From the NCBI RefSeq assembly GCF_003334385.1, contig NZ_QOWN01000084.1: 4,294 bases of DNA; one strand, given 5' to 3'. The stretch is from Escherichia coli (GTDB taxonomy: Bacteria > Pseudomonadota > Gammaproteobacteria > Enterobacterales > Enterobacteriaceae). Shown here one piece after another: positions 187 through 930 of the stretch. Numbering within the stretch: the stretch's first letter is position 1; each line of letters starts with the position of its first letter. The notes beneath the pieces were generated by a model that searched no databases, had not been told where the DNA came from, and saw only the letters and a list, made by a program, of their open reading frames with translations. A program made the translations under genes and the position numbers.

Positions 187-930
187 ATGATGTGTAAGAG
201 CGTGTCTTTATGTTTTTTATTGATATTTGGCATTGTGTTGAATGTTTATGCTAATTCTGAGTTTACAAAAAATAATAGTGTGTCATTGTCTTCGACTAGA
301 GCTGTTTTTAAATCTGGGAATACTAGCGAAGGATTAGGTGTTAAAAATAACTCAAAAGAGTCAGTTTATTTAATTAGAAGTTGGATTACTGATTATCACA
401 CTAATAAAGTGGATGATTCTAAGTTTCTGATAACACCACCTCTTCTAAAAATAAAACCCGACTCAACATATCAGTTAAAAATAAATAAAATATCAAACGA
501 TATGCCGACTGACAGAGAGTCTATATATAAAATAAATGTAATGGCCATCCCTGTTAATGGAGGGCAAAATGGACCTTCATCTAGTGAAATTTCTGGGGGG
601 GTATCACTTTCCGTTACGCACACTATAAAAATGTTCTATCGACCTGAGTCTATAGATAATAAAACAAATATGAATTCAATAGATGATTTCATATCAGCTA
701 ATTACGAGGAGGGTATCTTAAATATTGAAAACAAATCACCATTTTTTGTTACATTTGCAAATTTAATAACTGACAAAGAAAGTTTATATGCTCATTTAGC
801 TAAAGAAGGAATGGTGTCTCCATTTGGGAACATCCAAATCAGAACAAAGACAAAACCCAGGACTCTTACTTACCAAAGAATTAACGATTTCGGTGGCGTA
901 ACATTGGAGAAAATTATTGATGTTAAGTAA
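187..930 (+). CDS. Periplasmic pilus assembly chaperone, PapD/FimC family (short F1-G1 loop, FGS-like)
   Basis: 247-aa ORF with an N-terminal signal peptide (MMCKSVSLCFLLIFGIVLNVYA). It shows hallmark chaperone motifs in the conserved order: STRAVF...LGVKNNSKESVYLIRSWI (compare the canonical TRVIY...L.V.N......YLIQSW), FLITPPLLKIKP (compare F.VTPPLFRL), DRESIYKINVMAIP (compare DRESLFW.NVK.IP) and KMFYRP (compare KL.YRP). The F1-G1 region is short, as in FGS rather than FGL chaperones. The family assignment comes from recalled consensus motifs, not a search. Confidence 0.93.
   Translation: MMCKSVSLCFLLIFGIVLNVYANSEFTKNNSVSLSSTRAVFKSGNTSEGLGVKNNSKESVYLIRSWITDYHTNKVDDSKFLITPPLLKIKPDSTYQLKINKISNDMPTDRESIYKINVMAIPVNGGQNGPSSSEISGGVSLSVTHTIKMFYRPESIDNKTNMNSIDDFISANYEEGILNIENKSPFFVTFANLITDKESLYAHLAKEGMVSPFGNIQIRTKTKPRTLTYQRINDFGGVTLEKIIDVK

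What the first reader, a model, noticed from the sequence alone, without database searches (positions are those of the whole stretch)
917..930. Chaperone and usher reading frames overlap by 11 nt, consistent with translational coupling
The usher start (ATG 920, with TTG 917 also in frame) lies inside the last codons of the chaperone, whose stop is at 928-930. This implies coupled translation and a fixed chaperone-to-usher expression ratio. It is a common feature of CU operons and supports the two genes being one functional unit.
Basis: seen in the sequence. Interest (0 to 1): 0.15.

Follow-up and report, generated by a model that had tools for sequence, protein, structure and literature searches.

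The report
Chaperone–usher genes overlap by 11 bases
In a plasmid-borne E. coli fimbrial operon, the usher gene starts 11 bases before the chaperone gene ends; the overlap is real and cannot be avoided, but it is an ordinary kind of overlap that may link the translation of the two proteins without proving that it does.

Summary
The PapD-type chaperone ORF runs 187-930 (TAA 928-930). The usher ORF runs 917/920-3358, so the overlap is 11 nt from ATG920 or 14 nt from TTG917. The overlap is forced. The usher frame is closed by TAA 899-901. The next ATG (968) lies inside the signal peptide. The conserved mature N-terminus (FNPDFL) begins at residue 30. A GGAG Shine-Dalgarno sits at 906-909 inside the chaperone codons.

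The geometry allows termination-reinitiation, but published assays show coupling weakening as overlaps grow beyond -4 nt. The start region has no significant local structure, so independent initiation is equally possible. A "fixed ratio" does not follow.

Overlap is not common at this junction. Of 20 comparator chaperone-to-usher junctions (13 relatives, 7 E. coli K-12 operons), one clearly overlaps (ATGA) and one does so doubtfully. The typical gap is +15 to +35 nt.

Context: this is an uncharacterised E. coli plasmid cassette of chaperone, usher and pilin, bracketed by 224-nt inverted IS630-type remnants. An 18-nt complement to the usher start lies 1.5 kb downstream; it is unusual against shuffles but is probably chance.

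Low interest.

The parts
1..21 (.). Inner end of the left copy of a 224-nt inverted repeat, the 3' remnant of an IS630-family transposase gene. It is the reverse complement of 4274-4293.
   Evidence: I2; L003 8879-9102 / 13355-13578, 98% complementary; NF033545 IS630 family transposase, E 2e-12, for the ORF that runs into the window's left end
177..180 (+). Shine-Dalgarno GGAG (within AAAAGGAGU 173-181) of the chaperone gene
   Evidence: duplex with the 16S 3' tail -8.2 kcal/mol; ATG187 follows the GGAG core after 6 nt
187..930 (+). Periplasmic PapD-type fimbrial chaperone, 247 aa, stop TAA 928-930
   Evidence: PapD_N 32-156, PapD_C 180-238; LpfB/FimC-like, below the equivalog cut-offs; the tail after the INDFGG motif is of normal length
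906..909 (+). Shine-Dalgarno GGAG of the usher gene, embedded in chaperone codons TTG-GAG-AAA (L-E-K). It lies 7 nt before TTG917 and 10 nt before ATG920.
   Evidence: -6.4 kcal/mol; about 10% of positions in the window have a site that strong, so on its own it is only suggestive
917..919 (+). Alternative in-frame usher start TTG, which would give a 14-nt overlap
   Evidence: its SD spacing is better than that of ATG920, but it is a weaker start codon and is not chosen by any annotation
920..930 (+). The 11-nt overlap ATGTTAAGTAA. It encodes usher M-L-S-N(1st 2 nt) and chaperone (D)-V-K-stop.
   Evidence: identical in 13 copies of the locus
920..3358 (+). Outer-membrane usher, 812 aa. The predicted signal peptide MLSNKWRDIKFILASLMSISICKA is encoded by 920-991.
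   Evidence: PapC_N, Usher, PapC_C; PRK15193/LpfC/FimD-like; N-terminal alignment; nearest other ushers are 33-34% identical
2454..2484 (+). Segment inside the usher ORF that is complementary to the usher start region: 2454-2471 against 914-931 (17/18), and 2479-2484 against 904-909. It is a candidate long-range RNA partner and is probably chance.
   Evidence: (I5)
3545..4105 (+). Single-domain pilin, 186 aa, 186 nt after the usher stop
   Evidence: FimG 42 bits, StaE 41 bits, both below cut-off; no Pfam hit; full-length homology to the two pilins encoded upstream of the chaperone in the Hafnia relative, E 1e-12 and 7e-12
4122..4148 (+). Intrinsic-terminator-like hairpin (10-bp stem 4122-4131/4135-4144) followed by a U-run, ending the operon
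   Evidence: -12.1 kcal/mol, z = -3.5. The pattern scan did not list it.
4208..4280 (.). Fragment of an insertion-sequence end. It matches thousands of E. coli and Klebsiella records at 92-97% identity. From memory it resembles the IS2 left end; this was not verified here.
4274..4294 (.). Inner end of the right copy of the 224-nt inverted IS630-type repeat

Best explanation
This is the chaperone-to-usher junction of a polycistronic chaperone-usher fimbrial operon. The short spacer found in relatives is absent here, so the usher's ribosome-binding site lies inside the last codons of the chaperone gene.

Usher translation starts at ATG920 (less likely at TTG917), directed by GGAG 906-909. Every ribosome that finishes the chaperone passes over this site and terminates 8 nt beyond the start codon. 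Three consequences are expected. Any RNA structure over the start is melted. Free 30S subunits cannot bind while an elongating ribosome occupies the site. Some terminating ribosomes can reinitiate after moving a few nucleotides backwards to the SD-ATG.

The expected result is partial translational coupling added to SD-driven independent initiation, with the usher made at a level at or below that of the chaperone. A fixed stoichiometry is not expected.

Shown here: the ORFs, their identities, the forced overlap, the SD, and the absence of significant local structure. Inferred: one transcript, reinitiation, and the expression consequence.
For: Overlap and forced start. Domain identities. Same gene calls in all copies and in NCBI annotation. 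SD GGAG at 906-909, -6.4 kcal/mol. The chaperone tail after INDFGG is of normal length, so the overlap comes from the missing spacer and not from an extended chaperone. No promoter-like or terminator-like site at the junction. Literature: coupling by reinitiation works over short overlaps and is helped by an SD (PMC12548453 section 6; PMC10666635). Overlaps in CU clusters have been read the same way (PMC10104325).
Against: No expression data exist for this locus. -11 nt lies outside the -4 to +3 optimum, and coupling falls with increasing overlap. There is no significant local structure that would make the usher start depend on upstream translation (z = -0.08). The overlap is not conserved in relatives (1 clear case in 20), so it is not evidently selected. 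All copies of the locus are at least 99.86% identical, so conservation within the locus carries no information.
Confidence: 0.6

Rival explanations
1. The overlap is a neutral by-product of spacer loss in a compact, AT-rich, horizontally moving cassette. The usher is translated essentially by independent initiation at its own SD-ATG, and the amount of chaperone translation has little effect, or only a mildly inhibitory one through occlusion.
For: The usher has its own SD and ATG in a region without significant local structure. Relatives work with gaps of +15 to +35 nt or much more, so tight coupling is not a requirement of the system. Coupling declines with overlap length beyond -4. About a third of prokaryotic genes overlap a neighbour, so overlap as such needs no special explanation (PMC12548453 section 4).
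Against: Terminating ribosomes are delivered within 8 nt of an SD-ATG, a geometry in which some reinitiation has generally been seen in E. coli reporter studies. The SD is moderate, and its spacing to the ATG (10 nt after GGAG) is at the long end of the usual range.
Confidence: 0.28
2. Coupling by RNA unfolding. The usher SD and start (904-931) are masked by long-range pairing with 2454-2484 inside the usher ORF (or by alternative pairing with 866-895). Only ribosomes translating the end of the chaperone gene open the structure, so usher synthesis depends strictly on chaperone translation.
For: 914-931 is 17/18 complementary to 2454-2471, and 904-909 can pair with 2479-2484. The best duplex of the start region with the rest of the mRNA is -22.7 kcal/mol against -16.6 +/- 1.7 in 100 shuffles (z = -3.6, 0/100). 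The pairing appears in the minimum-energy folds of 850-2550 and 187-3358.
Against: It was found post hoc. 6 of 100 shuffled windows contain some 17/18 inverted 18-mer. In absolute energy the start region is only about 1.2 sd better than an average 31-nt window of the same mRNA, and many windows reach -27 to -32 kcal/mol. It is absent from the fold of 120-4150. There is no positionally conserved equivalent in 17 comparator operons. No sequence variation is available to test covariation. The partner lies in the translated usher ORF, where ribosomes would disrupt it.
Confidence: 0.1
3. The usher start is mis-assigned and translation begins downstream of the chaperone stop, so there is no functional overlap.
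For: None was found.
Against: There is no ATG/GTG/TTG in frame between 923 and 967. ATG968 would remove the positively charged n-region and most of the hydrophobic core of the signal peptide of an outer-membrane protein. The mature N-terminus aligns at residue about 26 with 18 other ushers. PapC_N starts at residue 30.
Confidence: 0.02

Closest known systems
Classical (gamma-type) chaperone-usher fimbrial operons of Enterobacteriaceae, e.g. E. coli fim, sfm, elf, yra, yeh and Salmonella lpf
   Same: It has a PapD-fold chaperone immediately upstream of a PapC/FimD-type usher on the same strand and a Fim-like pilin in the same operon. The best NCBIfam matches are LpfB/FimC for the chaperone and PRK15193/LpfC/FimD for the usher.
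   Different: All family scores are far below the equivalog cut-offs, and the nearest ushers are only 33-34% identical. There is no pilin gene upstream of the chaperone; the single pilin lies downstream of the usher. The chaperone-to-usher junction overlaps by 11 nt, whereas the seven K-12 operons have gaps of +15 to +66 nt. The cassette is bracketed by inverted IS630-type remnants.
Plasmid-borne relatives (Salmonella, E. coli, Hafnia, Citrobacter, Cronobacter) with the order pilin-chaperone-usher(-adhesin), loci L014, L016, L017, L030-L035
   Same: These are the closest usher and chaperone sequences found. They share AT-rich composition, plasmid or IS-rich settings and often an AraC-family regulator nearby. 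The chaperone C-terminal tail is homologous.
   Different: Their junctions are +148, -4, +21, +32, +29, +20, -35 (doubtful), +301 and +32 nt. They carry the pilin upstream and often a two-domain adhesin downstream, which this locus lacks.
Translationally coupled overlapping gene pairs (termination-reinitiation class; ATGA/-4, TGATG/-1 and -8 spacings)
   Same: The pair is co-directional, with the downstream start upstream of the upstream stop, an SD within the upstream ORF, and products that act together.
   Different: The spacing is -11, outside the enriched and best-coupled classes. Dependence of the downstream gene on upstream translation was not tested.
Phage MS2 coat-replicase long-distance interaction (RNA-unfolding coupling; recalled from established knowledge and described in general terms in PMC12548453)
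   Same: A downstream start site could be masked by pairing with a distant segment and opened by ribosomes translating the upstream gene. This matches the candidate pairing of 904-931 with 2454-2484.
   Different: Here the partner lies downstream, inside the regulated ORF itself. The pairing is of modest stability, is not conserved in relatives, and was found post hoc.

Membership tests
Chaperone-usher (CU) pilus assembly operon | Periplasmic chaperone with both PapD domains | tested here: met
   PapD_N E 5.9e-26 (32-156) and PapD_C E 3.3e-10 (180-238)
Chaperone-usher (CU) pilus assembly operon | Outer-membrane usher with an N-terminal domain, a beta-barrel/plug domain and a C-terminal domain | tested here: met
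   PapC_N E 6.9e-27, Usher E 4e-115, PapC_C E 1.1e-6
Chaperone-usher (CU) pilus assembly operon | At least one pilin subunit gene in the operon | tested here: met
   The ORF 3545-4105 matches FimG/StaE models weakly (E 7e-11 and 2e-10, below cut-off). It is homologous over its full length to the pilins of the Hafnia relative (E 1e-12). It has no Pfam Fimbrial hit.
Chaperone-usher (CU) pilus assembly operon | Sec signal peptides on the chaperone, usher and pilin | tested here: inconclusive
   Judged by eye and by alignment only: MMCKSVSLCFLLIFGIVLNVYA, MLSNKWRDIKFILASLMSISICKA and MFKLNKIYCAVLLTGLLSTSVSA. No signal-peptide predictor was available.
Named equivalog families (LpfB/LpfC, FimC/FimD and others) | Score at or above the curated NCBIfam cut-off | tested here: not met
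   Chaperone best score 116.6 bits against a cut-off of 360 (LpfB). Usher best score 360 bits against 995 (PRK15193) and 342 against 1271 (LpfC)..
Translationally coupled gene pair (termination-reinitiation) | Co-directional genes on one transcript with the stop and start within a few nucleotides | tested here: met
   Same strand, spacing -11 nt (or -14), with no room for a terminator or promoter. The transcript itself is inferred.
Translationally coupled gene pair (termination-reinitiation) | Spacing in the efficient and enriched range (-4, -1, -8; -4 to +3 in reporter assays) | tested here: not met
   -11 nt. The literature ranges were read.
Translationally coupled gene pair (termination-reinitiation) | Translation of the downstream gene depends on translation of the upstream gene | not testable with these tools
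   This needs a premature-stop reporter assay or ribosome profiling.
Translationally coupled gene pair (RNA-unfolding type) | The downstream start is sequestered in a stable structure that upstream ribosomes open | tested here: inconclusive
   The local fold is not significant (z = -0.08). A long-range complement exists (z = -3.6 against shuffles), but it is not exceptional in absolute energy, is not conserved, and depends on the fold boundaries.

The most novel reading that the evidence does not exclude
The usher's ribosome-binding site (904-931) is masked in the mRNA by long-range pairing with a complementary segment 1.5 kb downstream in its own ORF (2454-2484). Usher synthesis would then be possible only when a ribosome finishing the chaperone gene opens the duplex. 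This would be a built-in device that keeps a potentially toxic outer-membrane pore strictly subordinate to chaperone production.
Probability: 0.1. Interest if true: 0.4.

Novelty: new member of a known kind. Interest (0 to 1): 0.1.

Why it matters
It matters little by itself. Short same-strand overlaps are among the commonest features of bacterial operons, and this one adds no new principle.

It is useful for annotation. It fixes the usher start and shows that the chaperone and usher must be co-transcribed.

It also corrects a generalisation. In the sample examined, CU operons normally keep a 15-35 nt spacer between chaperone and usher, so this junction is an exception and not the rule.

If coupling were shown experimentally, it would give a simple example of how usher output is tied to chaperone output. 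The locus itself is an uncharacterised, IS-bracketed chaperone-usher-pilin cassette on E. coli plasmids, seen repeatedly in gut metagenomes, and may merit a look as a possible adhesin. That is a different question from the finding.

Tried and rejected
1. Near-identity searches of the whole window against PLSDB plasmids and complete E. coli genomes matched only the IS end at 4201-4288. The locus was instead found by exact protein look-up in draft genomes and metagenomes.
2. Rfam at gathering threshold gave no match.
3. The local RNA fold of 870-970 is no better than shuffles, so there is no evidence for a local masking hairpin.
4. The promoter/terminator pattern scan found nothing at the junction, and fewer promoter-like sites overall than in shuffles.
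5. A downstream alternative start was rejected.
6. An extended chaperone C-terminus as the cause of the overlap was rejected, because the tail length after INDFGG matches relatives.
7. A programmed frameshift or a chaperone-usher fusion was considered and rejected from the sequence. There is no slippery heptamer in GAG AAA ATT ATT GAT GTT AAG TAA, and the usher needs its own N-terminal signal peptide.
8. A literature search for experimental coupling in CU operons found only inference-level statements. Accession CP065621 appears in no held paper.
9. The long-range complement was tested for conservation in 17 comparator operons, and no consistent signal was found.
10. I did not run the expensive genome-wide or metagenome scans. 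The 20-junction sample was enough for the claim at issue.

Full report
**1. What is in the sequence**

The window (4294 nt, 33% G+C) carries three same-strand ORFs.
- 187-930 encodes a 247-aa protein with PapD_N and PapD_C domains.
- 917/920-3358 encodes an 812/813-aa protein with PapC_N, Usher and PapC_C domains.
- 3545-4105 encodes a 186-aa Fim-like pilin. It has weak FimG/StaE matches, no Pfam hit, and full-length homology to the pilins of a Hafnia relative (E 1e-12).

The chaperone ends ...GAT GTT AAG TAA, with TAA at 928-930. In the usher frame, TTG is at 917-919 and ATG at 920-922. The overlap is therefore 11 nt from ATG, or 14 nt from TTG.

**2. The overlap is forced, not a matter of start choice**

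- The usher frame is closed by TAA 899-901.
- Between that stop and the hydrophobic core of the signal peptide, the only start codons are TTG917 and ATG920.
- The next in-frame ATG (968) would give MSISICKA..., which has no charged n-region and a truncated h-region.
- Aligned with 18 other ushers, ELDRFNPDFLRVSDGVNAKEIDLTY matches their mature N-termini, for example FNPDFLQLSDGDNAKNIDLNY. PapC_N begins at residue 30.
- Gene callers and NCBI annotation give the same 812-aa usher and 247-aa chaperone in every copy.

**3. Ribosome-binding features**

GGAG at 906-909 lies in the chaperone codons TTG-GAG-AAA. It pairs with the 16S 3' tail at -6.4 kcal/mol. About 10% of window positions have a site that strong, so it is plausible but not significant alone. 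It lies 7 nt before TTG917 and 10 nt before ATG920. I cannot decide between the two starts, and either one gives an overlap. The local RNA around the junction (870-970) folds no better than shuffles (z = -0.08).

**4. Where the overlap comes from**

After the conserved INDFGG motif, the chaperone has 10 more residues (VTLEKIIDVK). Relatives have 9-11, so the chaperone is not extended. What is missing is the spacer that carries the usher's SD in relatives.

**5. Is overlap common at this junction?**

I measured the distance from chaperone stop to usher start in 20 comparators.

| Group | Junction distances (nt) |
|---|---|
| Seven relatives found by protein search | +148, -4 (ATGA), +21, +15, +21, +19, +81 |
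| Six plasmid relatives with PGAP annotation | +32, +29, +20, -35, +301, +32 |
| Seven E. coli K-12 operons | fimCD +66, sfmCD +30, yadV-htrE +34, elfDC +24, yehCB +15, yraIJ +28, yhcAD +20 |

The -35 case has an in-frame GTG at +28 that gives a normal signal peptide, so it is doubtful. That leaves one clear and one doubtful overlap in 20, and the usual arrangement is a 15-35 nt spacer.

Overlaps do occur at other junctions of CU operons: elfC-elfG -10, ycbV-ycbF -8, yhcD-yhcE -4, and the L021 usher-adhesin pair -10. They have been read as possible coupling in Pseudomonas cupA/cupE (PMC10104325).

**6. Does overlap imply coupling and a fixed ratio?**

A 2025 review (PMC12548453, section 6) gives these results for E. 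coli reporter systems:
- coupling is most efficient at -4 to +3 nt;
- it declines faster with increasing overlap than with increasing gap;
- in one systematic study it disappeared at -25 nt.

Genome surveys find -4, -1 and -8 enriched, and longer overlaps rare (PMC10666635; PMC12548453 section 4). At -11 nt with an SD, some reinitiation is likely. However, the usher also has what it needs for independent initiation.

My best reading (confidence 0.6) is partial coupling on top of SD-driven initiation. A purely independent mode (0.28) cannot be excluded. Nothing supports a fixed ratio. I found no experimental test of coupling in any CU operon in the held literature.

**7. A lead that probably is chance**

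The repeat search listed 914-931 as 17/18 complementary to 2454-2471, inside the usher ORF.

For the pairing:
- The SD region 904-909 can pair with 2479-2484. Both helices appear in the minimum-energy folds of 850-2550 and 187-3358, but not in the fold of 120-4150.
- The best duplex between the start region (902-932) and the rest of the chaperone-usher mRNA is -22.7 kcal/mol, against -16.6 +/- 1.7 in 100 shuffles (z = -3.6).

Against it:
- 6% of shuffled windows contain some 17/18 inverted 18-mer.
- In absolute energy the start region is only about 1.2 sd better than the average 31-nt window of this mRNA.
- Seventeen comparator operons show no consistent equivalent.
- The 5-6 SNPs that distinguish alleles lie outside both arms, so covariation cannot be tested.

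I keep this as a low-probability (0.1) RNA-unfolding variant of coupling.

**8. Context**

- The window is 100% identical to L002-L007 and 99.86-99.88% identical to L001 and L008-L013. These are E. coli draft genomes, one complete 137-kb plasmid (CP065621.1) and gut metagenome contigs.
- Neighbouring genes include ccdAB, parM/stbA, IS66, IS91, IS110, a microcin-B17-like YcaO/nitroreductase pair, and an AraC-family regulator about 3.5 kb upstream on the opposite strand.
- The cassette is bracketed by 224-nt inverted repeats (98% complementary) that are 3' remnants of an IS630-family transposase gene. The window's two ends are the inner 21 nt of these repeats. This explains why short-read assemblies so often break at exactly 4294 nt.
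- No pilin gene precedes the chaperone, unlike in all 13 relatives. The only pilin follows the usher after a 186-nt spacer. A terminator-like hairpin closes the operon.
- The nearest other ushers are only 33-34% identical.

**9. Verdict**

The feature is an ordinary short gene overlap, at a junction where relatives usually keep a spacer. Low interest (0.1).

Noticed in passing
window 1-21 and 4274-4294; L003 8879-9102 and 13355-13578: The chaperone-usher-pilin cassette is bracketed by 224-nt inverted repeats (98% complementary) that are 3' remnants of an IS630-family transposase gene. The window's ends are the inner 21 nt of these repeats, which explains why many short-read contigs of this locus are exactly about 4.3 kb long. 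The segment could be invertible by recombination or could be a relic of a composite element.
   Followed up: partly
window 22-186 and L003 8166-9268: No pilin gene precedes the chaperone, unlike in all 13 relatives examined; IS630 and IS91 remnants lie there instead. The only pilin (3545-4105) lies downstream of the usher, yet it is homologous to the upstream pilins of the Hafnia relative (E 1e-12). The operon may be rearranged or degraded, and its promoter is unidentified.
   Followed up: partly
window 914-931 / 2454-2471 and 904-909 / 2479-2484: There is a 17/18 complement to the usher start and chaperone stop 1.5 kb downstream in the usher ORF, plus an adjacent 6-bp complement to the SD. 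The best duplex is -22.7 kcal/mol (z = -3.6 against shuffles), but it is not exceptional in absolute energy, is not conserved in relatives, and depends on the fold boundaries.
   Followed up: yes
window 3367-3413: A strong SD (GGAGG 3367-3371) is followed by ATGATG and a 12-codon mini-ORF (MMECHFYIAFTP*) just after the usher stop, in the 186-nt usher-pilin spacer. It could be the relic of the start of a lost downstream adhesin gene, or a leader peptide. The spacer also holds a T-rich 21-nt tandem pair (3434-3475). An imperfect 19-nt inverted repeat (3284-3302 / 3344-3362) spans the usher stop, but its fold is not significant (z = -1.15).
   Followed up: partly
window 4208-4280: This fragment of an insertion-sequence end matches thousands of E. 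coli, Klebsiella, Salmonella and Shigella records at 92-97% identity. It is the only part of the window found in PLSDB or in complete E. coli genomes. From memory it resembles the left end of IS2; this was not verified here.
   Followed up: no
L003 4903-5721 (- strand), about 3.5 kb upstream of the chaperone: A 272-aa AraC-family regulator (best NCBIfam matches HilD/HilC/GadX-like, all far below cut-off) is conserved next to the cassette in all larger contigs. It is a candidate activator of the fimbrial genes, as Rns/AggR-type regulators are for other plasmid fimbriae (the comparison is from general knowledge).
   Followed up: no
L003 15316-15663 and 20893-22439; L004 17505-21428: The plasmid neighbourhood includes a microcin-like ORF, a YcaO plus nitroreductase-like pair (reminiscent of microcin B17 synthesis genes), ccdAB, and parM/stbA-type partition genes. 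The cassette therefore sits on a large IS-rich E. coli plasmid (CP065621.1, 137 kb).
   Followed up: no
L033 2393-2460 (NZ_CP051699.1): The PGAP-annotated usher start (GTG, 35-nt overlap with the chaperone) is probably too far upstream. A GTG 63 nt downstream gives a normal signal peptide (VKLIHLPLFIIFF...) and a +28 nt spacer.
   Followed up: partly
window 4122-4148: The terminator-like hairpin after the pilin gene (-12.1 kcal/mol, z = -3.5, followed by a U-run) was not reported by the pattern scanner although it appears to meet the scanner's stated criteria.
   Followed up: yes
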